Source: an uncultured Acidobacteriota bacterium
Lineage (GTDB): Bacteria > Acidobacteriota > Terriglobia > Terriglobales > Acidobacteriaceae
NCBI GenBank assembly: GCA_963758005.1
Contig: CAVWTR010000001.1
Location: 7,737-71,736 of the forward strand
DNA length: 64,000 bases
Direction of reading: 5' to 3'
Position numbers and translations under genes: made by a program. Below, piece after piece: positions 10,917-46,063 of this stretch. Each line of letters opens with the position of its first letter. The stretch's first letter is position 1. The notes below the pieces were generated by a model, which saw only the letters and a list, made by a program, of their open reading frames with translations, searched no databases and was not told where the DNA came from.

Positions 10917-10938
10917 CCAGACGCCGGAGGACACCCCC

Positions 10939-22063: not shown

Positions 22064-22115
22064 AATTCACCCCCAAGTAGATATAAAGCTGCCCGCAGTT
22101 TCCAATGTGCCGCCT

Positions 22116-23124: not shown

Positions 23125-23256
23125 GCGAGCCCTCCCGGCCAGAGTACGATTCGCAAATTCCGTCGAGCCAATGATCGAATGATCGATCGATTCGAACAAT
23201 GCAGCTCCTGTGCGGAAACATCTCAACAGAACCAGGTGCTCAGGAACTCGGTGGGC

Positions 23257-23427: not shown

Positions 23428-23537
23428 CGGATTCCTCGCTGATTCCCGCTCGATCACTTAAAGTTAAGCCGTGCCCAGGAACAGGGGCTATCCGGTGAAG
23501 CCTGTAGGTTTACTAACTCGGCAACTCCGGATACCCG

Positions 23538-23582
23538 TGATCCTGCTACTTCTGACTCTGTTACTTCTGATCCTGTTACTTC
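23538..23582 (-). repeat. 15-bp tandem repeat x3 overlapping the sigma-factor stop codon
   Basis: Plus-strand units are tgatcctgctacttc / tgactctgttacttc / tgatcctgttacttc. On the minus strand this is GAAGTAACAGGATCA-like x3. The repeat lies between the ECF sigma gene and the small basic-protein gene. Confidence 0.85.
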
Positions 23583-24292
23583 GCTGGTAGTGCCGTCAGA
23601 CCGAGGAAGCCTGTGCCTTGGTCCCGTGTTCCTCGATCCTCGGACTGATTTTTCGTTGCGCGGCGCCGGATTTTCGTCTTGGGGAACAGCAGAGCGCGCA
23701 TCTTCATCTTCGCTTTGTGCAACTGCGATTTGGAGTTGCCGATGGAGCAATCCAGCAATTCCGCGATCTCATGATGCTGATATCCTTCGACCTCATGCAA
23801 AGCAAAAATCTTGCGGCAGCCTTCTGGAAGTTCTTGCAGCGCACGACGCAAAGCCAGGCGGTCGACCACGCCAGCCAGGTCGGGGTCGCTCTTGCCGAAA
23901 TCGCGGTGTAAAGACGGAGACTCCGGGTTGACCGGCTCGTCCAGTGAAACAGTGGGCGGAGCTTTACGCCGGCGCAGTTTCATCAGCACTGTATTGACCG
24001 CCACGCGATACAGCCAGGTCGAGAATGCAGCATCGCCGCGAAACGAGCCGACGGTGCGGAAAACCTGCAAGAAAGCTTCCTGAGTCAGATCCTCTGCCTC
24101 AGCAACATCTTTGGTCATGAGCAAACACACGGAATAGACGCGGCTCTTATTCTGTTGAAACAGAGTTGCAAAAGCTTGTTCGTCGCCTGCCTGCGCGCGC
24201 TTTACCAGACTGGCCTGAGAATCGTCGCGGACCTGAACACTGGTCGCCGGAATCACGTTCGCTTCTGTCGCAGAAATCGCACAAGTTGCCAC
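23576..24292 (-). CDS. ECF-type RNA polymerase sigma-70 family factor
   Basis: Region 2 reads AFATLFQQNKSRVYSVCLLMTKDVAEAEDLTQEAFLQVF...WLYRVAVNTVL. Region 4 reads LPEGCRKIFALHEVEGYQHHEIAELLDCSIGNSKSQLHKAK. A basic C-terminal tail is present. Confidence 0.9.
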   Translation of the reverse strand: MATCAISATEANVIPATSVQVRDDSQASLVKRAQAGDEQAFATLFQQNKSRVYSVCLLMTKDVAEAEDLTQEAFLQVFRTVGSFRGDAAFSTWLYRVAVNTVLMKLRRRKAPPTVSLDEPVNPESPSLHRDFGKSDPDLAGVVDRLALRRALQELPEGCRKIFALHEVEGYQHHEIAELLDCSIGNSKSQLHKAKMKMRALLFPKTKIRRRATKNQSEDRGTRDQGTGFLGLTALPAK

Positions 24293-27374: not shown

Positions 27375-28790
27375 TTAGTTATTCCCCAGAGCGCCAATTC
27401 CGATTGGATCCTGCAAAGGCTCTTTGCTAACCCGCGTGCCAAGCGGGATCACGGCTTCTACCACCGATCCCCCGCTCGACGAGTCCACCCGGATCTCGCC
27501 GCCGAACTCCGCCAGTCTTTCTCTCATCCCGCCCAGACCGATGCCGGGCGCCGCACCAGCGCGAAAAAGCGCCAGAATCTCCGGCGGAATGCCTCTTCCG
27601 TCATCTGCAACTGTTAGGGTGACGTGTCCATCGCGAGAACAGATTCGAACATGCACGGATTGGGCCGCCGCGTGACGGTACACATTGGTCAGCGCCTCCT
27701 GCAAAACACGAAACAATGCGATCTCGATCTCTCTGGGTAGGCGTTCAATAGGCTCGACTATTAACAGCGACACCTTGACCTGGCTGCGTTTTCCAAACTC
27801 GTCCACATACCAACGCGCCGCCGGAAGGAATCCTAAATCTTCCAGCAATGGCGGATGGAGGAGATGCGAAATTGTCCGTACCTCCTGAAGAGCATAGTCA
27901 GTGAGTTCGATAGTCTCAAGAATCAACCTGCAATTCTCGATACGTGGTCCGCCGTCGATCTGACTAAGACTAATCTTGAGTCCTGCCAGATACTGACCGA
28001 CGCTGTCGTGGAGTTCTCGCGCGATGCGCCGCCGTTCCGCGTCCTGCAATTCCAGAATCCTGGCGCTCATCAGGCGATAGGAGTCCGCATTAGCACGCGA
28101 CTGCTTCTCCGTATCCTGGGTCAGAGCGACCTCACTCAAAAGGGTTCGAAAATGGTACGCCAGCATCAGGGTCACGACCGTAAAAGCTAATCCCAGCATA
28201 AATACATTGCGCCTGAACACGCGGTCCCAGGCCTTCAGGCTTCGCTCGAGCTGCGTATCCTCTTCATCTTGCATGCTCTTTACGATGGCGGTAATTTGCT
28301 GGTTGCGAGCGTCAATATTATTTTGTTGTCTCGGCTGGCGAGGCGAAATCTGCGTTCGAGTCCTTGCCGAATCCTGCCGACTCTCAACGCGAGACACGTT
28401 CTCCTTGAGTAGCTGGCCAAGCTGATACAGGCGTTGTCGCTGCCCAGGATTGTCCGCAGTGAGCCTGCGGAGTTCGTCCAGCGTTTGAAACGCCAATTCA
28501 GACCGCTCACGGAATTGCAGGAGTTGTTGCTTTCCCGGTCGCAAGATATCGGTGGTTTCGCCGACCTCGGTGCGCGTGAGTTCCAACTGCAGATCGCTCA
28601 ATTGAGATCGCACCTGATAGGTGTGAATGATCCAGTCGCGGCTGACCACAATGCCACGTTCCGTGAAATAGGCCACAGCACCGAGTGCGATGATGGTAAT
28701 AAATACCAGAGTCAGAGAGACGAAGCGGATAGTGAGAGACGAGGCTTTTACGCTCGGTGGCTTGCAATCTGGATTCCTCGCGATTCTCAT
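27375..28790 (-). CDS. CHASE3-domain sensor histidine kinase (HisKA_3/NarX type)
   Basis: TM helix, then a CHASE3-like segment VVSRDWIIHTYQVRSQLSDLQLEL...LDELRRLTADNPGQRQRL, then a second TM helix. H-box RRRIARELHDSVGQ, N-box LQEALTNVYRHA, G1 DDGRGI, G2 GIGLGGMRERL. The ATG at 28790 is preferred over the track start at 28895. Confidence 0.85.
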   Translation of the reverse strand: MRIARNPDCKPPSVKASSLTIRFVSLTLVFITIIALGAVAYFTERGIVVSRDWIIHTYQVRSQLSDLQLELTRTEVGETTDILRPGKQQLLQFRERSELAFQTLDELRRLTADNPGQRQRLYQLGQLLKENVSRVESRQDSARTRTQISPRQPRQQNNIDARNQQITAIVKSMQDEEDTQLERSLKAWDRVFRRNVFMLGLAFTVVTLMLAYHFRTLLSEVALTQDTEKQSRANADSYRLMSARILELQDAERRRIARELHDSVGQYLAGLKISLSQIDGGPRIENCRLILETIELTDYALQEVRTISHLLHPPLLEDLGFLPAARWYVDEFGKRSQVKVSLLIVEPIERLPREIEIALFRVLQEALTNVYRHAAAQSVHVRICSRDGHVTLTVADDGRGIPPEILALFRAGAAPGIGLGGMRERLAEFGGEIRVDSSSGGSVVEAVIPLGTRVSKEPLQDPIGIGALGNN

Positions 28791-29164
28791 ATTCGTCCTG
28801 GCCCGCCTCGTCCTGCCCGCCACCGATCGACTGACCCGACCGAATCCGGCTCGACGACCTTCACTAACTGTCCCTCTTGTCTGGCCCGGTCGCAATGGAC
28901 TCGACCCCGTAGACGTTCGGAGGATCTCTGGTAGGTGGCGCTAACTCAATCAGCAGAAGGTGGATCCGGCGACCAAGGATGGCTTCCAAGCGGTCAAACT
29001 GCAAAGGCCCGGCTCGGGCCATCGTGTGCAGTCACTCCGAAATGGACGTGGCCGCCGGCATCCGGCCACGCACAGGATAAAAAACGGGCGGCGATGTGTG
29101 GAATCGGTGAAAGCGTGTATGGGAAGGTTTTGATTCCCTGATTGCTTTTGCTGACTCGTGACCC

Positions 29165-29600: not shown

Positions 29601-31205
29601 TTAGACCGTGACAGGGACTTGCGTCGGTTCATGCCGCCGGGAAGGGATAATTACTTCAACGATCGTTCCGGGATTGGCATTCGCCAATCGGAGATGGCCG
29701 CCAAGTTCTGACACTCGTTGCCTCATTCCGCCGATGCCCACTCCGACGCTCTCGGGCCGCAATTGAATCACCCGCTCTTCGACTCCTTTACCATCGTCGG
29801 TCACAGTCACAAAGATGCGGCCGTCAATTTCCTTGAGGCTCACCTGCCCGTGCCGAGCTCCGGAGTGCCGAAACATGTTGGTCAGAGCCTCCTGAATGAT
29901 GCGGAAGATGGCGGTCTCCAGCTCCGATGTCAGCCGCCCAAGATTCGGTGGATCGACTTCTAAGTGAATCTCAATTCCGCTGCGTTCCGAAAGTCCCTCT
30001 AAGTACCAGCGAAGGGCAGAGACCAGACCAACCTCGTCGAGCAGAGGAGGGTGAAGAAGATGGGAAATCGTTCGGACCTGCTTGATGGCGCGGTCGACCA
30101 ATTGGCTCGCGTCAGCAGCCGCTTCACGCGTGGAAGGTGAGCCATCCTTGGAGAGAAATCCGTCCAGGATCATTTTCGCCGCAGCGAGTTCTTGCCCCAG
30201 ACCATCATGAATTTCGCGCGCGATTCTGCGCCGCTCCTCGTCCTGCATGGTCATCAAGCGGCCGGAAAGTCGCCTAAGTTCAGCAGTCCTGATATCGACC
30301 ATCCTCTCCAATTCAATCGCGCTATCGCGAATCGATTGTTCGAGGACCTTACTGTCGTGAATATCTGAACAAGTCCCATACCACTTAACGATGCTTCCTT
30401 TCGGATCTCGAAGCGGGACGGCACGCGCCCGGAACCAGCGGTACTGTCCGTCGACGCCGCGCATACGGTATTCAGATTCGTACCCTGCCCCGGACTGCAC
30501 GCATCGCAACCACTCCGCCGGGCTCCTCTCTTTGTCGTCAGGGTGCAGAAATTCCATCCAGCCAAATCCAACGGCGGTACCCGGCGGAGCACCGGTGTAT
30601 TCATAAAATCTGCTGCTGATGTAATCCCTCGCGCCGTCCGATTGCCGGCTGAAGATGATATCGGGAGCGGTCTGCACAATAGCATCCAGTTCCTGGTTTT
30701 TCTGCGCGAGGTCAAGATTAAGTCTCTGCAGCGCCAATGCCTTTTGTTCCAGCTCAAGCGTCCGATCAGCGACACGCTGTTCGAGTTCATTGTTTAGCCG
30801 CTCAAGCTGCAGTTTCTTTCGGTGGAGCTCGGTGAAGACTCTCACCTTGGCGCGTAAAACTTCCGGCACGATCGGCACCGAAAGATAATCCACCGCGCCG
30901 TGCTGATATCCCTTGAGCCGGTCGAAGTCGGTCAAATGAACGGCGGAGACAAAGATGATGGCAGTTTTTTGAAAGCGCGGGTGTTGTCGAATAATCTCGG
31001 CGAGTTCGAAGCCGTCGATTTCCGGCATGCTCACGTCCATCAGAACGACGGCGACATCCGTCTTGAGCAACTTCTCGAGAGCATCCTTGGCAGAAGTCGC
31101 CTTGATGAGGTTCTCCCCCAGATCGGCCAGAATTGCTTCATAACTGAGCAATTTGCCCGGTTGATCATCGACCATGAGAATGTTCATTCGTTCGTGCATG
31201 CTCAT
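29601..31205 (-). CDS. Receiver-PAS-histidine kinase (HisKA_3 type)
   Basis: N-terminal REC segment NILMVDDQPGKLL...VVLMDVSMPEIDG, then a coiled coil, then PAS/PAC (IIFSRQSDGARDYISSRFYEYTG...YRMRGVDGQYRWF). H-box RRRIAREIHDGLGQ, N-box IQEALTNMFRHS, G1 DDGKGV, G2 GVGIGGMRQRV. Confidence 0.88.
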   Translation of the reverse strand: MSMHERMNILMVDDQPGKLLSYEAILADLGENLIKATSAKDALEKLLKTDVAVVLMDVSMPEIDGFELAEIIRQHPRFQKTAIIFVSAVHLTDFDRLKGYQHGAVDYLSVPIVPEVLRAKVRVFTELHRKKLQLERLNNELEQRVADRTLELEQKALALQRLNLDLAQKNQELDAIVQTAPDIIFSRQSDGARDYISSRFYEYTGAPPGTAVGFGWMEFLHPDDKERSPAEWLRCVQSGAGYESEYRMRGVDGQYRWFRARAVPLRDPKGSIVKWYGTCSDIHDSKVLEQSIRDSAIELERMVDIRTAELRRLSGRLMTMQDEERRRIAREIHDGLGQELAAAKMILDGFLSKDGSPSTREAAADASQLVDRAIKQVRTISHLLHPPLLDEVGLVSALRWYLEGLSERSGIEIHLEVDPPNLGRLTSELETAIFRIIQEALTNMFRHSGARHGQVSLKEIDGRIFVTVTDDGKGVEERVIQLRPESVGVGIGGMRQRVSELGGHLRLANANPGTIVEVIIPSRRHEPTQVPVTV

Positions 31206-31278: not shown

Positions 31279-34200
31279 TTATCTGTGCAACCACATGCGA
31301 AGCGCCGAAAGCAGTTGCTCGGTATTAACTGGTTTGGCCAAATACTCTGAAGCTCCCGCTTCCAGGCACTTTTCGCGATCGCCCTTCATCGCTTTCGCAG
31401 TTAGAGCAATAATCGGCAACCTTCGGAAGGACGGATTCTGCCGAATCACCTGCATGGTCGCATATCCATCCATCTCGGGCATCATGATGTCCATCAAAAC
31501 AATCGCCACATCCGGAGTTGACTCCAGTATGGAGATTGCTTCGCGGCCGGTTCCAGCCGTCAAGACGGTCATTCCGCGGCGCTCCAGAACGCTGCTGAGA
31601 GCGAAGATGTTGCGCATGTCGTCGTCCACGACCAGCACTTTCTTCGCTACCAGGGCCTCATCGGAGCGATGCAGTCGATCCAGCATCCTTTGTTTTTCCT
31701 GCGGCAGATCCGCCACTACCCGATGCAGGAAGAGTGCCGTCTCGTCGAGCAGGCGCTCCGGCGATTCCACGCCTTTCACGACCACGCTGCGGGCCAGCAT
31801 GTGCAGTCGCGCGTCCTCCTCCGGAGACAATTCTTTTCCCGTAAATACAACGACGGGAAGATCGTTCACCGCAGGGATATCGCGCATGCGTTCGAGGACG
31901 TCAAAGCCCGTCATGTCGGGTAATCGCAAGTCCAGCACGACGCAGTCGAACGTCTCGCGGGTCACCAGGTCGAGAGCTTCCGCGCCGCTGGAGACAACAA
32001 AGACGTCGATGTCGTCATAACCCAGCAGCTCGCGGATGCTCATTTGCTCCGCCGGATTGTCCTCGACAATCAGCAGCCGCTTGCGCCGAGGTGAGGCGTA
32101 GTCCTTGATGCGGCCCAGCGCAGAATCGAGATCCTCGGGGCTTGTCGGCTTGTTCACAAAAGCAAACGCGCCTCGAGCCAATCCGTGATGCCGGTCTTCG
32201 TCCAGAGTCAGCATTTGTACCGGAATGTGCCGGGTGGCCGGATCTTGTTTCAAGTGATTGAGTACCGTCCAACCCAGCATGTCAGGCAAGAACACGTCCA
32301 ACGAAACCGCCGTGGGATGGAACTCGCGAGCCAGCGCGAGAGCCTCCGCTCCTCGCAGCGCGACAAGAACTTTGAATCCCTTGTCGCGCGACAAATCGCA
32401 GAGCACGCGGGCATAATGCGGATCGTCCTCGACAATGAGCAGCACGGCATCGTCCGGCTGCAGATTGTCGCGGTCGTCCACAATCCGGTCGACTGGAAGT
32501 TCCGACACGACGATATTCGACAGTTGAAGAGGCGTGGTCGTCGCCGATGTGCGCCAGTCGGAAGTGGTCAGCTTCGACGCCGACGGTCCGACGTAGTTAA
32601 GCGGCAGATAAAGTATGAACGTGCTGCCTTGACCGGGCGTGCTGCGGAGCTGAATCTCGCCGCCCAAAAGGCTTGCAAGTTCACGGCTGATGGCCAGCCC
32701 CAGGCCCGTTCCGCCGTATTTGCGGCTGGTGCTGGCATCTGCCTGCTGGAAGGCCTCGAAGATGATGCGCTGCTTATCGAGAGCAATTCCGATTCCTGAA
32801 TCGGTGACCTCAAAGGCGACCACTGAAGCCCCACCGCTGAGAATGGGATGATCTTCGCTCCATCCCTTTGTGGCCACCGACACGGCAAGCCGGACCGACC
32901 CATGCTCGGTGAACTTGAACGCGTTCGACAACAGATTTTTCAGCACCTGTTGCAGACGCTTCGAGTCGGTTACCAGACTGCGGGTAAGTTGCGGATCGGT
33001 CTGTACCTCGAAAGCCAGCCTGCGATTCTCCGCCTCGTGCCGGAAAGGCCGGGCCACCATTTCGAGCAGGTTGGTAAAGAATACTTCCTGCGCCTCGACC
33101 GATACCGTTCCGGACTCGATCTTCGAGAGATCGAGAATGTCGCTGATCAGGTTCAGCAAGTCAGTGCCGGCACCGTGAATCGTTCGTGCAAACTCCACCT
33201 GCTTGGCCGTCAGATTGTGGTCAGGATTCTCGCTGAGCTGCTGGCCGAGCACAAGAATGCTGTTCAGCGGCGTTCGCAATTCGTGCGACATGTTGGCGAG
33301 GAATTCTGATTTGTATTTGGAAGTTAGTGCAAGTTCCTTTGCCTTCTCTTCCAGAGCGCGACGGGCTTGCTCAATTTCCTGGTTCTTGCGTTCTACTTCC
33401 ACGTTCTGCTCGGCAAGTTGCTGGGCTTTTTGTGCGAGCTGCTCGTTGGTCTGTTGCAGTTCTTTTTGCTGGGTTTGCAGTTCGGCGGCAAGTTGCTGAG
33501 ACTGTTTGAGAAGTCCTTCTGTCTGCATCGTCGCTTCAATACTGTTCAGCACGATGCCGATGCTGGCAGTGAGCTGCTCGAGGAATGCCAGGTGAGAAGC
33601 CGTGAATGCGTTCAAAGAGGCGAGTTCAATTACCGCTTTCACGCGATCTTCAAAAAGCACCGGGAGGACAATCACATTTCGCGGAACTGACTCAAATAAA
33701 CCGGAACGAATGGGAACTGTCTGCTCCGGCAGGTCTGAAATCAACATGCGGCGCTTTTCCGACGCAACCTGCCCTACCAGCCCTTCGCCGATTCGCAGCC
33801 GGCGCAGGTGTCCCTTTTCGCCGTCATCGGCAAATGCTGACAGCAGCACCATGCCCGCCGTTTCTTCGGTTTCCATCTGATAAATCACGCCCTGCTGTGC
33901 GTTCACCAGCGGAGCGAGTTCGGAAAGCAACATGCGACCTACGGTCGCCAGATCGCGCTGGCCCTGCAACATTCCGGTAAAGCGAGCCAGATTTGTTTTG
34001 AGCCAGTCTTGTTCCGTGTTGCGGTCCGTGGTGAGCCGAAGGTTGTCGATCATGGTGTTGAGGTTGTCCTTCAAGTCCGCAACCTCGCCGCTCGCCTCCA
34101 CCTGAATCGAGCGGGTCAGATCACCTTTCGTGACGGCGGTCGCAACCTCGGCAATGGCGCGCACTTGATTGGTCAAGTTGTCAGCCAACAGGTTGACATT

Positions 34201-37200
34201 GCCGGTTAGATCTTTCCACGTTCCGGCTGCGCCGGGAACGTTCGCCTGTCCACCCAGTCTGCCTTCGACGCCCACTTCGCGCGCGACGGTCGTGACCTGG
34301 TCGGCAAACGTTGCCAGCGTATTCGTCATGTTGTTGATGGTCTCGGCTAGTGCCGCGACTTCGCCCTTGGCATTCACCGTGAGCTTCTGGGTGAGGTCTC
34401 CGTTGGCAACAGCCGTCACGACCTTCACGATGCCGCGTACCTGCTCGGTGAGGTTGACTGCCATGACGTTGACGTTGTCGGTAAGATCCTTCCACGTTCC
34501 GGCCACGCCGGGCACCTGCGCCTGGCCACCCAGCTTGCCGTCAGTGCCGACTTCGCGCGCCACGCGCGTGACTTCAGCGGCGAACGCGTTCAACTGGTCC
34601 ACCATCGTATTGATAGTGTTCTTGAGTTCGAGAATTTCACCTTTTACGTCGACCGTGATTTTGCGCGACAAATCGCCGCGGGCCACAGCCGTTGTGACTT
34701 CGGCGATATTTCGCACCTGACCCGTTAAGTTGCCAGCCATCGCATTGACGGAGTCGGTGAGATCTTTCCAAGTGCCAGCGACTCCCGGGACGTTGGCCTG
34801 TCCGCCCAACCGGCCTTCGCTACCGACTTCGCGGGCCACACGCGTGACTTCGGCGGCGAATGATCGCAGCTGCTCGACCATCGTATTCAGCGTTTCTTTG
34901 AGCTGCAAAATTTCGCCGCGTACGTCGACCGTAATCTTCTTCGAAAGATCGCCGTTCGCGATTGCGGTTGCGACCTCGGCGATGTTTCGAACCTGGCCAG
35001 TGAGATTGCTGGCCATGAAGTTGACGTTGTCGGTGAGATCCTTCCACGTACCTGCAACGCCGGGCACTTGCGCTTGCCCTCCCAGCTTGCCGTCGGTGCC
35101 GACTTCGCGCGCGACGCGCGTTACTTCGCCGGCGAACGCATTGAGCTGGTCGACCATCGTATTGATGGTGTTCTTGAGCTCGAGAATTTCGCCCTTCACG
35201 TCGACCGTGATCTTGCGTGACAAATCGCCGCGCGCCACAGCCGTCGTGACTTCCGCGATGTTTCGCACTTGGCCGGTGAGGTTTCCGGCCATGGAGTTTA
35301 CGGAATCAGTGAGATCCTTCCACGTACCAGCCACACCCGGGACCTGAGCCTGACCGCCGAGTTTGCCTTCCGAACCGACTTCGCGGGCCACACGGGTGAC
35401 TTCGGCGGCGAACGCGTTCAGTTGGTCCACCATCGTATTGATGGTTTCCTTGAGTAGCAGAATCTCGCCGCTCACGTTGACCGTGATCTTCTTGGAAAGA
35501 TCGCCGCTGGCAATGGCCGTCGATACCTCGGCGATGTTACGCACCTGGCCAGTCAAGTTGCTGGCCATGGAATTCACCGAGTCAGTAAGGTCCTTCCACG
35601 TTCCGCCGACACCAGGTACGAGAGCTTGGCCGCCCAGCTTGCCGTCGGTGCCGACTTCGCGAGCCACGCGTGTAACTTCTGACGCGAATGATCGCAATTG
35701 GTCCACCATGGTGTTCATGGTGTCTTTCAGCTCAAGAATTTCACCTTTCACGTCGACTGTGATCTTGCGCGACAAATCGCCGCGCGCCACGGCCGTCGCG
35801 ACTTCCGCAATGTTTCGCACCTGACCAGTGAGGTTGTTGGCCATGAAGTTGACGTTGTCCGTGAGATCCTTCCACGTACCGGCCACTCCGGGCACCTGCG
35901 CCTGACCGCCCAGCTTGCCTTCCGTGCCTACCTCGCGAGCCACACGCGTTACTTCACCAGCGAATGCATTCAGCTGATCCACCATCGTATTAATGGTGTT
36001 CTTGAGTTCGAGAATTTCGCCTTTCACATCGACGGTGATCTTGCGCGACAAATCGCCGCGGGCCACGGCCGTTGTGACCTCTGCAATGTTTCGTACCTGG
36101 CCAGTCAAGTTACCGGCCATGGAGTTCACCGAGTCGGTGAGATCTTTCCAGGTTCCGGCGACGCCAGGGACGTTCGCCTGTCCGCCCAACCGGCCTTCGG
36201 TACCGACTTCGCGGGCCACGCGCGTCACTTCACCGGCGAAGCGGTTCAGCTGATCGACCATCGTGTTAAGAGTTTCTTTGAGCTGTAGAATCTCGCCGCG
36301 GACATCAACCGTGATTTTGCGCGACAAGTCGCCGCTGGCGATGGCCGTTGCAACTTCCGCGATGTTACGCACCTGGCCCGTCAAGTTGCTGGCCATGAAG
36401 TTCACGTTATCGGTAAGATCTTTCCACGTGCCACCGACTCCGGGCACTTGTGCCTGGCCGCCCAGCTTGCCTTCCGTGCCAACTTCGCGAGCTACGCGCG
36501 TAACTTCACCGGCAAACGCGTTCAGCTGATCGACCATCGTGTTGATGGTGTCTTTGAGTTCGAGAATTTCGCCTTTCACGTCGACCGTGATCTTGCGCGA
36601 CAAGTCGCCGCGGGCCACAGCCGTTGTAACCTCTGCGATGTTACGGACCTGAGCCGTGAGGTTGCCGGCCATGGCGTTCACGGAATCCGTTAAATCTTTC
36701 CAGGTGCCGGCGACGCCGGGCACAACCGCCTGGCCACCGAGCTTTCCGTCGGTACCGACTTCTCGAGCGACGCGCGTTACTTCCGATGCGAACGACCGCA
36801 ATTGATCGACCATCGTGTTGATGGCTTCTTTGAGCTGCAGAATCTCGCCACGCACATCAACGGTAATTTTGCGGGATAAGTCACCGCTGGCCACGGCTGT
36901 GGCCACTTCAGCAATGTTGCGCACCTGACCAGTCAGATTGCTGGCCATGAGGTTGACGTTGTCGGTGAGATCTTTCCACGTACCGGCCACGTCCGGCACT
37001 TGCGCCTGGCCGCCCAGTTTTCCTTCGGTTCCTACTTCGCGCGCGACGCGTGTTACTTCCGCGGTGAACACGCCGAGCTGCTGAATCATCGTATTGACGA
37101 GGTTTGCGGATCGCAGGAACTCGCCTTCCAGTGGGCGCCCATCCACATCGAGTCGGACGGTCTGCGTAAGGTCGCCTTGCGCGACAGCTGCGATGGCACG

Positions 37201-37626
37201 CGTAACTTCGGCCGTCGGCCGGAGCAAGTCTTCGACCAGCGTGTTGACGGAGACTTCCATTTCGCCCCAGGCGCCGCGCGACTCATGAAACCGGGTACGC
37301 TCGCGGGTCTTGCCCTGCTTGCCAACGACGTGGCCGACCCGCTTCAATTCCTGCGCCATGTGTTGATTGGCAGCGACGATTTCGTTAAAAGTGTCGGCAA
37401 CTTTTCCCGCCAGCCCAACCCAAGTCCCCGGAAGGCGCACGGTGAAGTCGCCGTCGCGCATGGTCTGCAGGCTGGTCAGGATAACGGTGAGGTCGAGCGA
37501 CCCATCCCCGGCTTTGGGTTTGCCGTTATTCTTGGCACCGTTCTTGGCGCCATTGCTCTTCGCAATGGAGGAAGGAAGGTTCTCGGTGCCGTCGGGCACG
37601 ATTTCGTTCAGCGTGGATCTTTTCAT
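31279..37626 (-). CDS. Soluble giant hybrid histidine kinase: poly-HAMP array (11 x 92 aa), GAF, HisKA, HATPase, 3 x REC
   Basis: Uninterrupted 2115-codon ORF with no TM segment. Eleven tandem units each contain [10 protein letters not shown]..[20 protein letters not shown]. A GAF-like block follows (VIYQMETEE...[16 protein letters not shown]...). H-box [17 protein letters not shown]-box [13 protein letters not shown]1 TDSGIGI, G2 [12 protein letters not shown]. Three receivers are present ([10 protein letters not shown].., [10 protein letters not shown].., [10 protein letters not shown]..). Confidence 0.93.
34033..37068 (-). repeat. Coding tandem repeat: 276-bp (92-aa) unit x11 inside the giant kinase
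   Basis: Units begin at residue 187 ([13 protein letters not shown]) and run head to tail to residue 1198. Units 1-9 are near-identical in protein, while units 10-11 are more diverged. Confidence 0.9.
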
Positions 37627-39608: not shown

Positions 39609-40748
39609 ATGAAGATGCCACGAACGTCATTCGCGGAGAATGTGCGCGGTTATGGCGTGGCCCTGCTGGCTGCGATCGCAGCTCTGCTCCTTCGCAGACT
39701 GTTGACCCCGGTGTTGGGAGCTCAGAACCCTTACCACACTGCGTGGGCCGCGGTGGTTTTCTCGGTGTGGTATTGCGGAGTGGGCCCGTCCATCCTCACC
39801 ATTCTGGTTGATCTCATCGGCATCTGGTACTGGTTCCTGCCGCCGACTGGCTCCTTTGCCCTTGCCAACCCAAGAGCGGACATCGCCGGAATGGTGGGCT
39901 TCGTAATCTTTTCCGGATGTATCGCTGTATTCGGAGAATCCACTCGCCGTTCTCTGGCAAGAAGCCGCTGGGCCGAAGATCAGCTGCGAGTTGCGCACTC
40001 CGGCCTGGAGCGCAAGGTTCAGGAGCGAACCACAGAATTGAGAATGGCCAACGAAAATCTGGAGGAACTGTCTCACCACCTGCAGCAACTTCGAGACGAG
40101 GAACGGAAACAGATTGCCCGCGAATTGCACGACAGCGTCGGACAGATGCTGGCAGCCTTGAGCATGAATATTGCAAAGGTGCAGTCTCAATCCGACAAGC
40201 TGGACTCAGCGGCGGCCCGCGCGGTCGCAGAAAACGCGGTCCTGGTTCAACAAATCAGCAAGGAGATTCGCACCATTTCGCATCTGCTGCATCCGCCTCT
40301 GCTCGACGTGGCCGGACTGGCATCGGCTGTCCGCTGGTATGCCGACGGTTTTTCGGAGCGAAGCAAGATCAATGTCGAGACTGAGATTCCGGAAGAGTTT
40401 CGCCGGCTTTCCGATGAGATGGAGATCGCAATTTTCCGCATGGTGCAGGAGTGTCTCACCAATATTCATCGTCACTCTGGCAGCGATACTGCGATCGTTT
40501 CGATTCGGGAGGAGGACCACAGCATTATTGTGGAGGTCAAAGACGCGGGCAAGGGCATCCCTCCGGAAAAACAGATGGAGCTGCGTTCCGATCGAACAGG
40601 CGTGGGTTTTCGCGGCATGCGAGCGCGATTGCGACAGTTTGGTGGAGAACTGGACATTCAATCGGACGGTGGTGGGACGTCTGTCACGGCCAAACTCCCT
40701 CTTCAGCCGACTTCGATATCCGTCGTCGATCGGGGAAACGCTTCGTGA
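39609..40748 (+). CDS. Membrane sensor histidine kinase (DUF4118-like TM bundle plus HisKA_3 plus HATPase)
   Basis: Four N-terminal hydrophobic helices. H-box RKQIARELHDSVGQ, N-box VQECLTNIHRHS, G1 KDAGKGI, G2 GVGFRGMRARL. Confidence 0.88.
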   Translation: MKMPRTSFAENVRGYGVALLAAIAALLLRRLLTPVLGAQNPYHTAWAAVVFSVWYCGVGPSILTILVDLIGIWYWFLPPTGSFALANPRADIAGMVGFVIFSGCIAVFGESTRRSLARSRWAEDQLRVAHSGLERKVQERTTELRMANENLEELSHHLQQLRDEERKQIARELHDSVGQMLAALSMNIAKVQSQSDKLDSAAARAVAENAVLVQQISKEIRTISHLLHPPLLDVAGLASAVRWYADGFSERSKINVETEIPEEFRRLSDEMEIAIFRMVQECLTNIHRHSGSDTAIVSIREEDHSIIVEVKDAGKGIPPEKQMELRSDRTGVGFRGMRARLRQFGGELDIQSDGGGTSVTAKLPLQPTSISVVDRGNAS

Positions 40749-41620: not shown

Positions 41621-43948
41621 ATGACCGATGCATCACAGATTGCTGAGGGAGGTCCATGGATGCGCTTGCTGAGTGTTCGGCTGATTGTGTCTCTGATCGT
41701 AGGCATAACGCTGGTGTCGCTGGCGTTCTCCTATTATCAGGTCGTGCAAGAGAAGCGCACACTCCGCGGCGATCTGGAGCGGCGGGCCGAGGTCCTCGGC
41801 GAGAGTCTGGCCGGCAATGTCGAGAAGATAGTGGGAACCGGCTCGAACCAGGCGCTGCAACGACTGGTGCAACGCTTTAGCAATCGGGAAAACTTGATTG
41901 GAGTTGCAGTCTACGACCGGAACGCTGACCTCGTAGCGATGACCCCGGAGCTAGCGAAAATGCTGACTGGGAGTCCGGCAGCGCTGACCCAGGCGCTTCG
42001 CGACAATCACAATGAGAGTTCTTTCGTTAAGTTCGGAAACGACCGCATACTGATTTTCGCCTTGCCCCTGCACCGCGACAGCGAGCTAGCGGGGGCGTTG
42101 GTGATTGTGCATGACGCGGACTACATCCAGGCACAGATGCTTCGGGTGTGGCGGGAAACATTTTTCCGGGTGCTGGTGCAGGTCTTTCTGGTGGTTTTTA
42201 TCACGCTCCTGATCGTACGCTCCAGCATCAGCGGGCCGATTGTGCGCGCCGCGCAATGGATGAGAGCCATGCGCACCGGCGGAATCGCCTCATCCCAGAA
42301 GATGCCGAACCTCGACATGTTCCGTCCGCTAGCCGACGAAGTTGCCACCATGGCTGCAAGCCTGAGCCTGGCACGCAATGCTGCCGAAAACGAGGCTCGT
42401 CTGCGGGAAGCCAGCGAGTCGATGTGGACCGCGGACCGGCTCTCCGTACACATCCAAAGCCGCCTCGCCGGTACGCGGCTCTTCGTCGTTTCGAATCGCG
42501 AACCTTACATTCACCAGCGAGATGGAAAGTCCTTGAACGTGATCGTACCCCCGAGCGGCTTGGTAACTGCTCTGGAACCTGTGCTCAACGCTTGCGATGG
42601 AACCTGGATCGCGCACGGTAGCGGCGATGCTGATCTGGAAACAGTTGATGCTCACGATCGCCTTCGTGTTCCGCCCGATGATCCTCGCTACACTTTGCGG
42701 CGCGTATGGCTAAACAAGCAGGAAGAGGAAGGCTACTACTACGGTTTTGCCAACGAAGGGCTGTGGCCTCTGTGCCATATCGCTCATACTCGACCCATCT
42801 TTCGCGCGTCCGACTGGCAGTCCTATCAGGAAGTCAACCGTAAGTTTACGGTGGCGCTGCTCGAGGAGATCGAAGATATACCCAGTCCGGTAATTCTGGT
42901 CCAGGACTATCACTTCGCTTTGTTGCCGCGGATGATTAAGGAGAAGAGGCCGGACGCGCGGGTGGCTATCTTCTGGCACATTCCATGGCCAAACCCCGAA
43001 GCCTTTGGAATCTGTCCCTGGCAGCGGCAGTTGGTAGACGGCCTGCTAGGGGCTGATCTTGTCGGTTTTCACGTACAGTCGCACTGCAACAACTTCCTGC
43101 AGACCGTCGACCGGGTTGTCGAATCGCGTGTGGATTGGGAGCACTTTTCCGTTCTGCGCAAGGAGCACCGCACCATCGTCCGCCCCTTCCCTATTAGCGT
43201 GGACCTGACCGACGATGAACCTGCGGGAGGCAGCGACAGCGAGTCCAGGTATCTCGAGCGAGCGTCTTTGACCCGCAGTATTGGCTCAGAGGCAACGTTC
43301 CTCGGGATCGGCGTCGATCGGGTTGACTACACAAAAGGAATTCTGGAGCGCTTCCTGGCGATCGAGCGCTTTCTGGAGAAATATCCAGCCTATCAGGGAA
43401 AATTCACCTTCGTTCAGATTGGGGCTCCCAGCCGGACGCACCTGAAGCGCTATCACGACCTGCTGGCCGAGGTGGAAGCAGAGGCCGACCGCATCAACTG
43501 GCGCTTTCAATCAGACCGATGGAAGCCCATCGCGTTTCTGAAACGGCAGCATAGCCACAAGGAGATCACGCCGTATTATCGCGCAGCCGATCTCTGCATG
43601 GTCACGTCGCTGCACGATGGGATGAACCTGGTGGCCAAGGAATTTCTGGCGGCGCGCCAGGACGAACGTGGAGTGCTGATCCTGAGCCAGTTCACCGGCG
43701 CCGCGCGCGAACTGCGCGATGCCCTGCTGGTGAATCCCTACGACATCGATCAGTCGGCGGAAGCCATCCGGGTTGCACTCGAGATGGAACCTGAAGATAA
43801 GCAGCTGCGGATGCACCGAATGCGCCGAACGATAAAAGAACACAACATTTACCGCTGGGCCAGCAATCTAATAAGTGAACTCTGTGAGGTCCGATTGGAC
43901 GCCACGGAAGAAGAACCCGCCAGGCTCCACGCGAGCGCGAGCATCTAG
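41621..43948 (+). CDS. otsA: Trehalose-6-phosphate synthase (GT20) fused to an N-terminal TM-loop-TM-HAMP-like sensor module
   Basis: GT20 motifs are present: [57 protein letters not shown]. The N-terminal ~280 aa contain TM1 [24 protein letters not shown], a loop of ~140 aa, TM2 [19 protein letters not shown], then [18 protein letters not shown]...[15 protein letters not shown]. Confidence 0.88.
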
Positions 43949-44722: not shown

Positions 44723-46063
44723 ATGCATCCAGTGAAATCTGAATCCGTAGCCACCTCAACAGTGTCGGAGACAACCTCCGCTCAACCTGTACCCTTGCGA
44801 ACGGAGCGGCGGAAGTCGCCTCGAACCTGGGAGAAACCGCCCGCACCGGTTCCGCCGCCACACTTAGACGACTACCGGAGCGTCGTGGGTTCGGCTGCGA
44901 TTGACGAACTTCACTTCCTTGCCCGCAACCTCAAGGGCAAGACGCTCAAGATGGTTAACTCCACGGCGGTCGGCGGAGGGGTCGCCGAGATCCTGAACCG
45001 CCTGGTGCCGCTGCTCGGAGAATTGGAAGTGGTCACCCACTGGGATGTCATCACCGGAGGCAACGATTTCTTCGAGGTGACGAAGGCATTTCACAATGCC
45101 CTGCAGGGCAGTACGTACGAACTAACGCGCCAGGCGCAGGAAATCTTCCTGACCTGTAACGAGCAAAATCGGCAGCGCATGCAATTTAACGAGGACATTG
45201 TGGTAATTCACGATCCGCAGCCCGCCGCGCTCATTCGTGCCCGGCAGGACTCGCCGGCGCACTGGATTTGGCGATGCCACATCGATCTCTCGAATCCTAA
45301 TCCGCAGGTGTGGCAGTTTCTACGACCGTTCGTAGAGCAATATGACGCGGCAATTTTCTCGTCGCAATCATTTACGCGTCAGCTGTCGATTCCTCAGTAC
45401 TTGTTTTATCCATGCATTGACCCGTTATCCGAGAAGAACAAAACGCTCGACGACAGCTTTGTTCAAAAGGTTTGCGACGAGTTTGGAATCGACCGATCCC
45501 GGCCCATCGTCACCCAAGTCTCGCGCTTCGATCGCTTCAAAGATCCGGTCGGCGTGGTGCAGGCTTTCAAACTTGCCAGCAAATACGTGGATTGTCAATT
45601 GGTACTGGCGGGCGGGGGAGCCAGCGATGATCCCGAGGGTGCGACTGTTCTGGCCGAGGTAAAAGAAGCTGCGGGGGACGATCCCAACATCATCATTCTC
45701 GACCTTCCACCGTGGTGCGCACTGGAGATCAATGCCCTGCAACAGGCTTCGACTCTGGTGATTCAGAAATCGATCCGGGAAGGCTTCGGACTGACCGTAA
45801 CCGAGGCGCTGTGGAAGGGCAAACCTACGATCGCCGGCGCCGTAGGTGGAATTCCCAATCAGGTAATCGATAAGCTCACCGGCGTACTCGTGCACACGGT
45901 GGAAGGCTGCGCCTACCAGATCCGTTATCTCTTGACGCATCCCGAATTCGCCGCTCAGCTGGGCCGTAACGGACGTGAGCACGTGAAGGAAAACTTTCTC
46001 ATGACCACTAACGTGCGGCGATGGCTGTTGCTGATGCAGATTTTACTGGGCAAAACGGGTTGA
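44723..46063 (+). CDS. treT: GT4 glycosyltransferase, TreT-like trehalose synthase
   Basis: N-terminal motif VNSTAVGGGVAEILNRLVPLL...FFEVTKAFHNALQG is typical of TreT-type enzymes. The GT4 C-terminal E-x7-E motif is present (REGFGLTVTEALWKGKP). Confidence 0.75.
   Translation: MHPVKSESVATSTVSETTSAQPVPLRTERRKSPRTWEKPPAPVPPPHLDDYRSVVGSAAIDELHFLARNLKGKTLKMVNSTAVGGGVAEILNRLVPLLGELEVVTHWDVITGGNDFFEVTKAFHNALQGSTYELTRQAQEIFLTCNEQNRQRMQFNEDIVVIHDPQPAALIRARQDSPAHWIWRCHIDLSNPNPQVWQFLRPFVEQYDAAIFSSQSFTRQLSIPQYLFYPCIDPLSEKNKTLDDSFVQKVCDEFGIDRSRPIVTQVSRFDRFKDPVGVVQAFKLASKYVDCQLVLAGGGASDDPEGATVLAEVKEAAGDDPNIIILDLPPWCALEINALQQASTLVIQKSIREGFGLTVTEALWKGKPTIAGAVGGIPNQVIDKLTGVLVHTVEGCAYQIRYLLTHPEFAAQLGRNGREHVKENFLMTTNVRRWLLLMQILLGKTG

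What the first reader, a model, noticed from the sequence alone, without database searches (positions are those of the whole stretch)
31279..37626. Soluble 2115-aa hybrid kinase carrying an 11-unit array of fungal Nik1/Os-1-type 92-aa HAMP repeats
After a degenerate lead-in of ~186 aa with no TM segment, the ORF has eleven head-to-tail 92-aa units. Their consensus is [92 protein letters not shown]. GAF, HisKA, HATPase and three receivers follow. From memory, a 92-aa periodic HAMP/HAMP-like array with nearly this wording ([17 protein letters not shown]..V.G.W.DLT.NVN.MA.NLT.QVR.IA.VT.AVA.GDL..KI...GEI..LK.TIN.MVD.L) is the signature of fungal group III hybrid kinases. These are the Nik1/Os-1 osmosensors targeted by fludioxonil and iprodione, and they have only about five to six units. 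Here the array is about twice as long and is wired to GAF plus three receivers. That makes it a candidate prokaryotic relative of the fungal sensor and an extreme case of a poly-HAMP rod. The signal it senses is unknown.
Basis: partly seen in the sequence, partly recalled or inferred. Interest (0 to 1): 0.8.

Follow-up and report, generated by a model that had tools for sequence, protein, structure and literature searches.

The report
Known bacterial poly-HAMP hybrid kinase
This gene encodes a soluble bacterial sensor kinase built on a rod of 25 HAMP domains and is a true relative of the fungal Nik1/Os-1 osmosensor, but this family (AskA/AskB type) is already described, is widespread, and often has longer arrays, so the finding is real but ordinary.

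Summary
ORF 31279-37626 (-) encodes a 2115-aa protein with no TM segment. It has eleven in-register 92-aa units (aa 187-1198), then GAF, HisKA, HATPase and three receivers. The "degenerate lead-in" is not junk: it is a capping HAMP plus a twelfth, diverged di-HAMP unit, giving 25 HAMPs in all.

The fungal link is also real. Units of a genuine fungal OS-1 orthologue are 64-72% identical to the window consensus without gaps. They score 127-147 bits on a unit HMM, against under 8 bits for unrelated ORFs.

None of this is new, however. Residues 41-324 align without gaps (67% identity, E 1.6e-114) to the crystallised Myxococcus xanthus AskA poly-HAMP (PDB 9TRK/9TRJ). The architecture is exactly the "kinase-associated poly-HAMP" family of Coles et al. 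2026 and Marcos-Torres et al. 2020.

The array is not extreme either. Eleven regular units is the commonest count among the relatives sampled here, across 8 phyla. AskB has 31 HAMPs, and a Coemansia fungal kinase has 32 units.

Assembly error is unlikely: units are at most 86% identical in DNA and dS is at least 0.83. The sensed signal remains unknown. Verdict: an uncharacterised acidobacterial member of a known family, of low interest.

The parts
31279..37626 (-). Whole ORF: 2115-aa soluble hybrid histidine kinase of the kinase-associated poly-HAMP (AskA/AskB-like) family
37495..37626 (-). N-terminal low-complexity tail, aa 1-44, net charge +3
   Evidence: Sequence and charge count. It lies outside the region aligned to AskA.
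37345..37494 (-). Capping canonical HAMP ('D1' type), aa 45-94
   Evidence: Ungapped alignment to AskA construct 9TRK, 50% identity in this segment. Pfam HAMP scores only 13.7 bits. D1 nomenclature follows Coles et al..
37069..37344 (-).
   Evidence: In register with the array. 55% identical to the matching AskA segment. The D half scores 19.7 bits on Pfam HAMP and the C half gives no hit.
34033..37068 (-). Eleven regular 92-aa di-HAMP modules (22 HAMPs), aa 187-1198. Units 1-9 are homogenised; units 10 and 11 are distinct and positionally orthologous across phyla.
33958..34032 (-). Linker helix from the last HAMP into GAF, aa 1199-1223, carrying the conserved motif [13 protein letters not shown]
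   Evidence: Helix at residues 2-25 of the AlphaFold2 model. Invariant columns in alignment A2.
33547..33957 (-). GAF domain, aa 1224-1360
   Evidence: Pfam GAF_2, 64.4 bits. Model pLDDT 86.9. Foldseek finds a generic GAF fold at 13-19% identity to PtsP, Lcd1 and fRMsr GAFs.
33313..33546 (-). Long Q/E-rich signalling helix (coiled coil) joining GAF to DHp, aa 1361-1438
   Evidence: Continuous helix from model residue 148 to the model's end, i.e. aa 1343-1407. Beyond aa 1408 the assignment is an inference from the sequence.
33109..33312 (-). HisKA (DHp) with phospho-acceptor His1448 ([14 protein letters not shown])
32599..32967 (-). HATPase_c catalytic domain; N, G1, F and G2 boxes intact (aa 1568, 1609, 1623, 1638)
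32119..32457 (-). Receiver 1, aa ~1724-1836, Asp1777
31741..32088 (-). Receiver 2, aa ~1847-1962, Asp1899 (boundaries approximate)
31300..31638 (-). Receiver 3, aa 1997-2109, Asp2046
29601..31205 (-). Downstream same-strand partner gene (73-nt gap): REC-PAS-HisKA_3-HATPase kinase; positional analogue of AskC
   Evidence: Domains. A same-strand ORF follows within -55 to +251 nt in 78 of the 80 related loci, and 66 of those 78 neighbours begin with a receiver. No terminator-like site in the gap. AskC context.

Best explanation
**What it is.** The gene encodes an uncharacterised acidobacterial member of the kinase-associated poly-HAMP hybrid histidine kinase family. The source is probably Candidatus Sulfotelmatobacter or a related member of Terriglobales. 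This is the family of Myxococcus xanthus AskA/AskB and Sorangium Amb07, and fungal and amoebozoan group III kinases (Nik1/Os-1/Drk1/TcsC) also belong to it.

**Anatomy (shown here).**
- A short basic tail.
- A capping canonical HAMP, followed by 12 di-HAMP modules of 92 aa each (one non-canonical plus one canonical HAMP). That gives 25 HAMPs.
- A linker helix, a GAF domain and a long coiled-coil helix.
- DHp with His1448, and an intact ATPase domain.
- Three receivers with their phospho-acceptor Asp residues.

**How it most likely works (inferred from the AskA crystal structures and the published model, not tested here).**
- The protein is a cytoplasmic homodimer. Its HAMPs stack into one continuous four-helix rod.
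- Canonical and non-canonical HAMPs alternate between opposite helix-rotation states. A conformational bias set anywhere in the rod can therefore be relayed through the GAF and the signalling helix.
- This switches DHp/CA between kinase and phosphatase modes.
- Phosphoryl groups go to the C-terminal receivers.
- Signalling continues through the co-transcribed REC-PAS-HisKA_3 kinase immediately downstream. This partner is AskC-like, and in M. xanthus its receiver contacts Rec3 of AskA.

**Input.** It is not identified. There is no upstream sensor domain, so the candidates are the rod itself and the GAF domain.
For: **Family membership**
- Residues 41-324 align without gaps to PDB 9TRK/9TRJ (AskA poly-HAMP fused to GCN4): E 1.6e-114, 66.9% identity.
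- A single 92-aa unit scores 255 bits on AskA, against 24 bits on the next PDB hit, Aer2.
- The architecture matches the published definition: D1 plus n x (C-D2), then GAF, DHp/CA and one or more receivers, with no TM segment and no upstream input domain.
- The interface Trp and the junction Gly residues are invariant in all 11 units.
- Pfam detects only the canonical half of each unit (47 bits). The other half has no hit at E<=10, as expected for a 'divergent' HAMP.

**Homology to fungal kinases**
- Shown with real sequences: locus L081 and NIK1-annotated fragments.

**Catalytic competence**
- The H, N, G1, F and G2 boxes and all three receiver Asp residues are present.

**Selection on the array**
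- dN/dS is about 0.07 between units.
- The array is 80-90% identical across phyla, more conserved than the catalytic core.

**Partner gene**
- A receiver-first kinase gene sits immediately downstream on the same strand in most related loci.
- AskC is likewise the gene after askB, and its receiver binds AskA Rec3.

**Taxon**
- From the names in the protein's 90% cluster and from the nearest loci.
Against: - No experiment or structure exists for this protein. Dimerisation, helix-rotation relay and phosphotransfer order are carried over from AskA and from single-HAMP systems.
- Coles et al. themselves state that the role of signalling through poly-HAMP arrays remains unclear.
- No HPt domain was found among the window ORFs scanned, which covered most but not all of the window. 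How phosphate would move from the receivers to the partner's receiver is therefore unexplained.
- The partner here has a HisKA_3 DHp, whereas most relatives have HisKA or HWE. Partner orthology to AskC is positional only.
- The Myxococcus readouts (fruiting-body development, ambruticin response) have no obvious counterpart in Acidobacteriota.
Confidence: 0.9

Rival explanations
1. It works as a Nik1/Os-1-like osmotic or water-stress sensor. The rod senses cytoplasmic water activity or crowding and controls compatible-solute (trehalose) synthesis. This is a claim about the input, and it is compatible with the family assignment.
For: - The units are homologous to those of fungal osmosensor kinases.
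- M. xanthus Ask mutants change their response to 0.3-0.5 M glycerol.
- A GT20 trehalose-6-phosphate synthase (41621-43948) and a TreT-type trehalose synthase (44723-46063) lie 4-8 kb upstream.
- GT20 is also near the kinase in three acidobacterial loci and one Prosthecobacter locus.
Against: - The trehalose neighbourhood occurs in only 4 of 80 loci, and the genes are divergently oriented with another kinase gene in between.
- Even in fungi, direct osmosensing by the array is unproven.
- Marcos-Torres et al. consider direct glycerol sensing by the Ask kinases unlikely.
Confidence: 0.2
2. The GAF domain is the real sensor and binds a small cytoplasmic ligand. The poly-HAMP rod is then only a modulator, scaffold or spacer whose length tunes the set-point.
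For: - GAF is the only classical sensor fold in the protein, and it is inserted in the helical backbone between the array and DHp.
- Many GAF columns are invariant across relatives.
- Coles et al. call it 'the sensory GAF domain' and raise the modulator idea.
Against: - Fungal relatives lack the GAF entirely yet still signal, and their HAMP mutations give the phenotypes.
- The array, not the GAF, is the most conserved region: 80-90% against 57-79% identity across phyla.
- The fold search gives only generic GAF similarity at 13-19% identity, with no ligand clue.
Confidence: 0.3
3. It is a DNA-associated kinase. The basic N-terminal tail and/or the array bind DNA, as reported in vitro for AskB and AskA, so that signalling takes place at promoters.
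For: - AskB and AskA bound PmrpC DNA in vitro.
- The tail, aa 1-44, is Lys-rich with net charge +3.
- The FrzCD precedent is cited by Coles et al..
Against: - The 'HTH' signals are sub-threshold, repeat-driven Pfam matches. Here HTH_6 scores 18.1 bits against a cut-off of 28.3, with 0 stretches.
- The array is net acidic, -17 overall.
- The tail is not conserved: cap identity across phyla is 35-55%.
- The DNA-binding mechanism of AskB is not established.
Confidence: 0.08
4. The 11-unit array is an assembly artefact, that is, a repeat expansion or collapse.
For: - Several short-read MAG contigs of relatives break inside the array, for example L018, L023, L031 and L040.
Against: - Units are only 62-86% identical at the DNA level, and no two units share an exact run of 30 nt or more.
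- dS between units is at least 0.83.
- The frame is intact over 6.3 kb.
- The same 11+1 organisation occurs in 38 of 59 intact relatives, including the complete Bradyrhizobium ganzhouense chromosome.
- An acidobacterial relative matches unit for unit at 96-100%.
- The named full-length members listed for the 90% cluster are all 2104-2121 aa.
Confidence: 0.02
5. The similarity to fungal kinases is only generic HAMP similarity, or reflects convergence, as for chemoreceptor-type poly-HAMP arrays.
For: - Coles et al. argue that chemoreceptor-type and kinase-type arrays converged on similar features.
Against: - Fungal and bacterial units are on average 61% identical, the same as fungal units from different proteins are to each other (59%). 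The maximum to a window unit is 78%.
- The 92-aa register and motifs are identical in both halves.
- Generic HAMP proteins score under 8 bits on the unit HMM.
Confidence: 0.01

Closest known systems
Myxococcus xanthus AskA (MXAN_0712, UniProt Q1DEE3; PDB 9TRK/9TRJ), its paralogue AskB (MXAN_6735) and Sorangium Amb07
   Same: - Soluble, with the same order of parts: D1 cap, then C-D2 di-HAMP modules of 92 aa, then GAF, DHp/CA and multiple receivers (AskA has a Rec3).
- 67% identity without gaps over the crystallised N-terminal 284 residues.
- The same interface Trp and junction Gly residues.
- A receiver-containing kinase gene directly downstream, as AskC is for askB.
   Different: - Array length: 25 HAMPs here, 21 in AskA and 31 in AskB.
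- The host is an acidobacterium with no fruiting-body development.
- The partner kinase has a HisKA_3 DHp.
- No functional data exist for this protein.
Fungal group III hybrid histidine kinases (N. crassa Os-1, C. albicans Nik1, Blastomyces Drk1, A. fumigatus TcsC)
   Same: - Homologous 92-aa di-HAMP units in the same register: central units are 64-72% identical and score 127-147 bits.
- The same D1 + n x (C-D) logic.
- No TM segment and no upstream sensor.
- The RNT motif after the last HAMP.
- Homologous DHp/CA.
   Different: - In fungi the array joins DHp directly. Here a GAF plus a roughly 80-aa coiled coil is inserted.
- Fungal kinases have one true receiver feeding Ypd1. Here there are three receivers and no HPt domain among the window ORFs scanned.
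- The array here has no Cys, so a Drk1 C392-type sentinel thiol cannot exist.
- Dikarya have about 5 units, but Circinella has 17-18 and Coemansia has 32.
Chemoreceptor-associated poly-HAMP arrays (HAMP types A/B) and multi-HAMP Aer2/FrzCD
   Same: - Soluble proteins with concatenated canonical and non-canonical HAMPs and a zig-zag rotation pattern.
   Different: - A different HAMP sequence family: Aer2 scores only 24 bits.
- The output is a methyl-accepting domain, not GAF-HK-REC.
- Coles et al. consider them to be of independent origin.

Membership tests
Kinase-associated poly-HAMP hybrid kinases (AskA/AskB type; HAMP groups C/D of Coles et al. 2026) | Soluble: no TM segment and no upstream sensor domain before the array | tested here: met
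   Maximum KD19 is 1.44 and lies in the GAF domain. No Pfam domain precedes the first HAMP.
Kinase-associated poly-HAMP hybrid kinases (AskA/AskB type; HAMP groups C/D of Coles et al. 2026) | N-terminal D1 canonical HAMP followed by repeated di-HAMP modules (non-canonical C plus canonical D2) at fixed spacing | tested here: met
   There are 12 modules: the 11 regular units at exactly 92 aa, preceded by a diverged lead unit that the unit HMM places 97 aa before the first of them. The canonical half scores 47 bits on PF00672 and the other half gives no Pfam hit. The cap aligns to AskA D1.
Kinase-associated poly-HAMP hybrid kinases (AskA/AskB type; HAMP groups C/D of Coles et al. 2026) | Sequence homology to the AskA array | tested here: met
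   E 1.6e-114 and 66.9% identity over 284 ungapped residues to 9TRK. A single unit scores 255 bits.
Kinase-associated poly-HAMP hybrid kinases (AskA/AskB type; HAMP groups C/D of Coles et al. 2026) | [quoted passage not shown] | tested here: met
   Trp at unit position 31 and Gly at positions 13, 16, 19-20, 62 and 74 are invariant in all 11 units. Which of these Gly residues are the structural junction ones was not mapped onto 9TRK.
Kinase-associated poly-HAMP hybrid kinases (AskA/AskB type; HAMP groups C/D of Coles et al. 2026) | Array followed by GAF, DHp + CA and one or more receivers | tested here: met
   GAF_2, HisKA, HATPase_c and 3 x Response_reg. All catalytic motifs are intact.
Kinase-associated poly-HAMP hybrid kinases (AskA/AskB type; HAMP groups C/D of Coles et al. 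2026) | Dimeric stack of parallel four-helix HAMP bundles | not tested
   Inferred from 67% identity to the crystallised AskA segment. No dimer model was computed here.
Kinase-associated poly-HAMP hybrid kinases (AskA/AskB type; HAMP groups C/D of Coles et al. 2026) | Functional coupling to an adjacent receiver-containing kinase (AskC-like) | tested here: inconclusive
   A REC-PAS-HisKA_3 gene lies 73 nt downstream. A receiver-first neighbour is found in 66 of the 78 downstream ORFs of related loci.
Fungal group III hybrid histidine kinases (Nik1/Os-1) | N-terminal array of 92-aa HAMP repeat units of the group III sequence type | tested here: met
   64-72% identity and 127-147 bits to units of fungal locus L081. 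90-121 bits to the terminal units of NIK1-annotated fragments.
Fungal group III hybrid histidine kinases (Nik1/Os-1) | Array connected directly to DHp, with no intervening sensor domain | tested here: not met
   A GAF plus coiled coil (aa 1199-1438) is inserted here. Fungal sequences run ...NLRDSIQRNT..[19 protein letters not shown].
Fungal group III hybrid histidine kinases (Nik1/Os-1) | Single C-terminal receiver feeding an HPt protein (Ypd1) and the HOG MAPK pathway | tested here: not met
   There are three receivers. No HPt domain was found among the window ORFs scanned. The organism is a bacterium.
Fungal group III hybrid histidine kinases (Nik1/Os-1) | Confers osmosensing and sensitivity to phenylpyrrole/dicarboximide/ambruticin | not testable with these tools
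   This needs genetics or heterologous expression. The HAMP-located sentinel Cys proposed for Drk1 is absent here: there are 0 Cys in aa 1-1198.
Chemoreceptor-associated poly-HAMP arrays (groups A/B) | Array followed by a methyl-accepting signalling domain | tested here: not met
   No MCPsignal domain is present; the output is GAF-HK-REC.

The most novel reading that the evidence does not exclude
The rod length and surface are themselves the functional determinant. The 25-HAMP form keeps exactly the same unit count and 92-aa spacing in 8 phyla. The array is the most conserved part of the protein (80-90% identity, dN/dS about 0.07), more so than the catalytic core. It travels with a receiver-first kinase gene. 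This could mean the rod is a calibrated physical sensor (for crowding, water activity or mechanical state), or a docking platform contacted along its whole length by a conserved partner. In that case it would not be a passive relay, and the bacterial two-kinase module would be the ancestral form of the fungal osmosensor. In this acidobacterium it might control trehalose synthesis.
Probability: 0.1. Interest if true: 0.6.

Novelty: new member of a known kind. Interest (0 to 1): 0.2.

Why it matters
Group III poly-HAMP kinases are the route by which fludioxonil, iprodione and ambruticin kill fungi, yet what the HAMP rod senses is still unknown. Bacterial relatives are tractable models for that question.

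This particular gene adds only another uncharacterised member to a family already defined structurally (AskA, PDB 9TRK/9TRJ) and genetically (AskA/B/C).

The comparative by-products of this check are modestly useful:
- There is a dominant 25-HAMP length class shared across phyla.
- The array is unusually conserved relative to the catalytic core.
- Only the two terminal units are positionally orthologous across phyla.
- A receiver-first kinase gene is conserved as the downstream neighbour.
- Some early-diverging fungi carry very long arrays.

Tried and rejected
1. **Protein search with a recalled N. crassa OS-1 HAMP region.** It returned only bacterial array fragments, at 62-70% identity, because summed repeat scores favour long arrays. 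I did not use it as evidence, since the query came from memory. Instead I used a search with a recalled kinase core only as bait to pull out real fungal database entries. I then recovered a real fungal genomic locus, L081. All fungal comparisons rest on those real sequences.
2. **The look-up of encoding contigs for the window protein.** Not on record. The organism was inferred from cluster names instead.
3. **GAF ligand assignment.** Profile-vs-PDB and Foldseek searches showed only a generic GAF fold at 13-19% identity, with no ligand inference possible.
4. **Search for an HPt domain or an obvious cognate output in the window.** No HPt was found. There are many two-component genes, but no specific link to this kinase.
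5. **Promoter and terminator scan.** Nothing above shuffled expectation. The only point of note is that there is no terminator between the kinase and the downstream gene.
6. **Trehalose-gene linkage as a family-wide clue.** It is present in only 4 of 80 loci, so I rejected it as general.
7. **Monomer structure prediction of 2-3 units.** Not run. A crystal structure of a 67%-identical segment exists, and a monomer model of a dimeric four-helix bundle would not be informative.
8. **Sub-threshold Pfam hits in the array** (GatB_Yqey, DUF1759, Laminin_II, HTH_6, RHH_6). They show 0 stretches, and most also fall below their curated cut-offs, so I treated them as repeat-driven noise.


Full report
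**1. Observation**

The minus-strand ORF 31279..37626 starts with ATG and encodes 2115 aa. Cutting the protein every 92 residues from aa 187 gives eleven units in perfect register with no indel. They span aa 187-1198, which is window 34033..37068. Tandem Repeats Finder independently reports a 276-nt period.

No segment is hydrophobic enough for a TM helix; the best 19-residue Kyte-Doolittle mean is 1.44 and lies inside the GAF domain. Pfam finds HAMP (11 stretches), HAMP_2 (12), GAF_2 at 1224-1360, HisKA at 1439-1506, HATPase_c at 1554-1676 and three receivers.

**2. Anatomy in more detail**

The 186-aa lead-in is part of the array. It aligns without gaps to the N-terminus of the AskA constructs and has three parts:
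- a Lys-rich tail, aa 1-44;
- a capping canonical HAMP, aa 45-94;
- a diverged twelfth di-HAMP unit, aa 95-186.

Each regular unit has two halves. The C-terminal half is a canonical HAMP, scoring 47 bits on PF00672. The N-terminal half gives no Pfam hit even at E<=10. This is the behaviour of the 'divergent/non-canonical' HAMP described in the literature. The total is 1 + 12x2 = 25 HAMPs.

Other sequence features:
- The Trp at unit position 31 and six Gly positions are invariant in all units.
- The array contains no Cys and no His.
- His1448, the N, G1, F and G2 boxes, and Asp1777, Asp1899 and Asp2046 are all present.

An AlphaFold2 model of aa 1196-1408 was built on 34 homologues and has pLDDT 86.9. 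It shows a helix entering a GAF fold and a long helix leaving it toward DHp. Foldseek finds only generic GAF relatives at 13-19% identity.

**3. What it is**

A sequence search of the PDB puts two entries far above everything else: 9TRK and 9TRJ, 'histidine kinase, Gcn4p'. The match is E 1.6e-114, covers query residues 41-324 without gaps, and is 66.9% identical. These are the six-HAMP and four-HAMP constructs of M. xanthus AskA from Coles et al. 2026 (PMC13446029).

That paper defines two poly-HAMP families. The kinase-associated one has these features:
- HAMP groups C and D, with a D1 cap;
- the array lies upstream of a GAF domain, DHp/CA and one or more receivers;
- no upstream input domain;
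- it is present in bacteria, fungi and Amoebozoa.

AskA has 21 HAMPs and AskB has 31. Marcos-Torres et al. 2020 (PMC7643160) had already described AskA, AskB and Sorangium Amb07 as bacterial group III-like hybrid kinases with extended poly-HAMP regions compared with Nik1. The window protein meets every sequence-testable feature of this family (see the membership table).

**4. The fungal link, tested with real sequences**

I baited the protein database with a kinase core recalled from memory. This returned fungal fragments annotated 'osmolarity two-component system sensor histidine kinase NIK1' or 'histidine kinase osmosensor'. From one of them I recovered an intron-containing fungal locus, L081. 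It carries a D1-like HAMP and five di-HAMP units, and the last unit is joined directly to DHp.

Results with an HMM built only from the window's eleven units:
- The central fungal units score 127-147 bits over the full 91-92 positions, and the terminal units of other fungi score 90-121 bits.
- Ungapped identity to the window consensus is 64-72% for central units. That is as high as fungal units are to each other.
- In 1.69 Mb of bacterial DNA (the window plus 80 loci), no ORF other than the poly-HAMP kinases themselves exceeds 8 bits.
- In the PDB, the best non-AskA hit to one unit is Aer2, at 24 bits.

The refutation condition 'only generic HAMP similarity' is therefore not met. The homology is specific.

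The differences from fungal kinases are:
- the inserted GAF and coiled coil;
- three receivers instead of one;
- no HPt domain among the window ORFs scanned;
- no cysteine in the array, whereas Drk1 C392 lies in a HAMP.

**5. Is it extreme? No**

They span Acidobacteriota, Pseudomonadota, Cyanobacteriota, Bacteroidota, Planctomycetota, Gemmatimonadota, Myxococcota, Verrucomicrobiota, Eremiobacterota and others.

Of the 80 best loci, 59 have an intact cap and an intact C-terminal module of roughly 917 aa. Their regular-unit counts are:

| Regular units | Loci |
|---|---|
| 11 | 38 |
| 9 | 8 |
| 14 | 4 |
| 12 | 4 |
| 10 | 2 |
| 8 | 2 |
| 15 | 1 |

Spacing is exactly 92 aa throughout in 72 of the 80 loci. 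This sample is biased toward proteins like the query. Even so, it shows that the 25-HAMP form is common rather than exceptional. It occurs in 8 phyla, including the complete Bradyrhizobium ganzhouense chromosome.

An exhaustive HMMER scan of 1.84 billion cluster representatives found 7352 clusters at E<=1e-3 and 985 at E<=1e-30. The longest arrays there are fungal:
- Coemansia sp. KAJ2256297.1, 4598 aa, with 32 units at exact 92-aa spacing;
- Circinella umbellata KAI7855641.1, with 17-18 units.

**6. Not an assembly artefact**

- Units are 62-86% identical in DNA, and no two share an exact run of 30 nt or more.
- Between units 1-9, dS is at least 0.83 (mean 1.4), dN is about 0.10 and the median dN/dS is 0.07.
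- An acidobacterial relative, L013, matches unit for unit at 96-100%.
- The exact protein is in the public collection. The named full-length members listed for its 90% cluster are all 2104-2121 aa and are named 'HAMP domain-containing protein [Candidatus Sulfotelmatobacter sp.]'. That genus belongs to Terriglobales, Acidobacteriota.

**7. Evolutionary pattern**

Units 10 and 11 find their positional counterparts in Bradyrhizobium, Nostoc, Nannocystis, Chitinophagaceae and Planctomycetaceae. Units 1-9 are homogenised and show an alternating a/b flavour.

Identity of the window protein to relatives in other phyla, by region:

| Region | Identity across phyla |
|---|---|
| Array (aa 187-1198) | 80-90% |
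| GAF + coiled coil | 57-79% |
| DHp + CA | 57-80% |
| Receivers | 39-71% |
| Cap (aa 1-186) | 35-55% |

The array is thus the best-conserved region. Fungal terminal units are orthologous among fungi but not to bacterial terminal units. Fungal-bacterial unit identity averages 61%, about the same as fungal-fungal identity between different proteins, which is 59%.

**8. Context**

The next gene on the same strand begins 73 nt downstream, with no terminator-like site in the gap. It encodes REC-PAS-HisKA_3-HATPase at 29601-31205.

In 78 of the 80 related loci a same-strand ORF follows within -55 to +251 nt. One search scanned these 78 downstream ORFs together with the window's own downstream gene, 79 sequences in all. 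Of the 79:
- 67 begin with a receiver; excluding the window's own gene, that is 66 of the 78 related-locus neighbours;
- most carry a kinase core (HisKA 38, HWE 14, HisKA_2 12, HisKA_3 10);
- 8 carry CheR instead.

In M. xanthus, AskC is the hybrid kinase immediately downstream of askB, and its receiver interacts with Rec3 of AskA. The window gene is a positional analogue; its homology to AskC was not tested.

The window as a whole is dense in two-component genes. No HPt domain was found among the ORFs scanned. Trehalose synthesis genes (GT20 and TreT) lie 4-8 kb upstream, but that neighbourhood recurs in only 4 of 80 loci.

**9. Mechanism**

Shown here:
- family membership;
- an intact catalytic apparatus;
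- strong purifying selection on the array;
- a conserved neighbouring receiver-kinase gene.

Inferred from the literature:
- a homodimeric stacked four-helix rod;
- alternating helix-rotation states that relay a conformational bias to DHp;
- kinase/phosphatase switching as in fungal Drk1.

Unknown: the input. My estimates, which are not mutually exclusive, are:
- the GAF domain as ligand sensor with the rod as modulator, about 0.3;
- an osmotic or water-activity cue, about 0.2;
- DNA association, below 0.1.

**10. Verdict**

The 'extreme' claim is wrong, and the prokaryotic-relative idea is already published. This is an uncharacterised member of a known, widespread family.

Noticed in passing
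Related proteins P0526/P0530 (Coemansia sp., KAJ2256297.1, 4598 aa) and P0361 (Circinella umbellata, KAI7855641.1, 2344 aa): The longest arrays of this 92-aa unit are in early-diverging fungi, not bacteria. Coemansia has 32 units at exact 92-aa spacing (about 65 HAMPs) and Circinella has 17-18. Both lack a GAF domain and have the fungal-type junction to DHp.
   Followed up: partly
window 34033-37068 compared with L011, L012, L025, L034, L036, L046, L055: The poly-HAMP array is the most conserved part of the protein across phyla: 80-90% identity, against 57-80% for DHp+CA and 39-71% for the receivers. Overall identity to Bradyrhizobium is 79%, which is unusually high between Acidobacteriota and Alphaproteobacteria. 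This suggests strong constraint on the rod surface, horizontal transfer, or both.
   Followed up: partly
window 34033-34584 (units 10-11) versus 34585-37068 (units 1-9): Only the last two units (and the cap) have clear positional orthologues in distant phyla. Units 1-9 are homogenised. They show an alternating a/b pattern (units 2, 4, 7 and 9 versus units 1, 3 and 8), which amounts to a 184-aa super-period.
   Followed up: partly
window 29601-31205 (-) and the gene downstream of the kinase in L001-L080: A receiver-first kinase gene directly follows the poly-HAMP kinase in most loci. Of 79 downstream ORFs scanned (78 from related loci plus the window's own), 67 start with a receiver. The DHp type varies (HisKA, HWE, HisKA_2, HisKA_3). 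In 8 loci the neighbour carries CheR methyltransferase domains instead.
   Followed up: partly
window 41621-43948 (+) and 44723-46063 (+): Two trehalose synthesis genes lie 4-8 kb upstream of the kinase. One is a GT20 trehalose-6-phosphate synthase with a roughly 285-aa N-terminal extension that matches no family. The other is a TreT-type trehalose synthase. GT20 also neighbours the kinase in L049, L002 and L019 (Acidobacteriota) and in L047 (Prosthecobacter), but not in the other loci.
   Followed up: partly
window 6820-13949, 21365-24292, 27375-28895, 39609-40748, 56498-60072: The window is unusually dense in two-component genes:
- two REC-HisKA kinases;
- a triple-PAS kinase;
- a PilZ protein;
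- five single-domain receivers;
- a NarL-type regulator (21365-22063);
- an ECF sigma factor (23576-24292);
- CHASE3-, DUF4118- and PAS-HisKA_3 kinases.

No HPt domain was seen among the ORFs scanned.
   Followed up: no
window 31279-37626, array region: Sub-threshold, repeat-driven Pfam matches occur inside the array: HTH_6/RpiR at 18.1 bits against a cut-off of 28.3, plus GatB_Yqey, DUF1759 and Laminin_II, each with 0 stretches. Matches of the same kind (HTH_6/RpiR) were read as 'partial DNA-binding domains' in AskA/AskB by Marcos-Torres et al.; here they are not significant.
   Followed up: partly
window 2240-4078 (+): This looks like a BlaI/BlaR1-like pair. A Penicillinase_R repressor (2240-2770) is followed by two overlapping ORFs. 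ORF 2767-3504 matches no family. ORF 3491-4078 matches only the C-terminal part of Peptidase_M56. This could be one gene split by a frameshift.
   Followed up: no
window 5656-6705 (-): A 349-aa ORF matches only positions 1-260 of the 486-position phosphoglucose isomerase profile. It may be truncated or a short PGI form.
   Followed up: no
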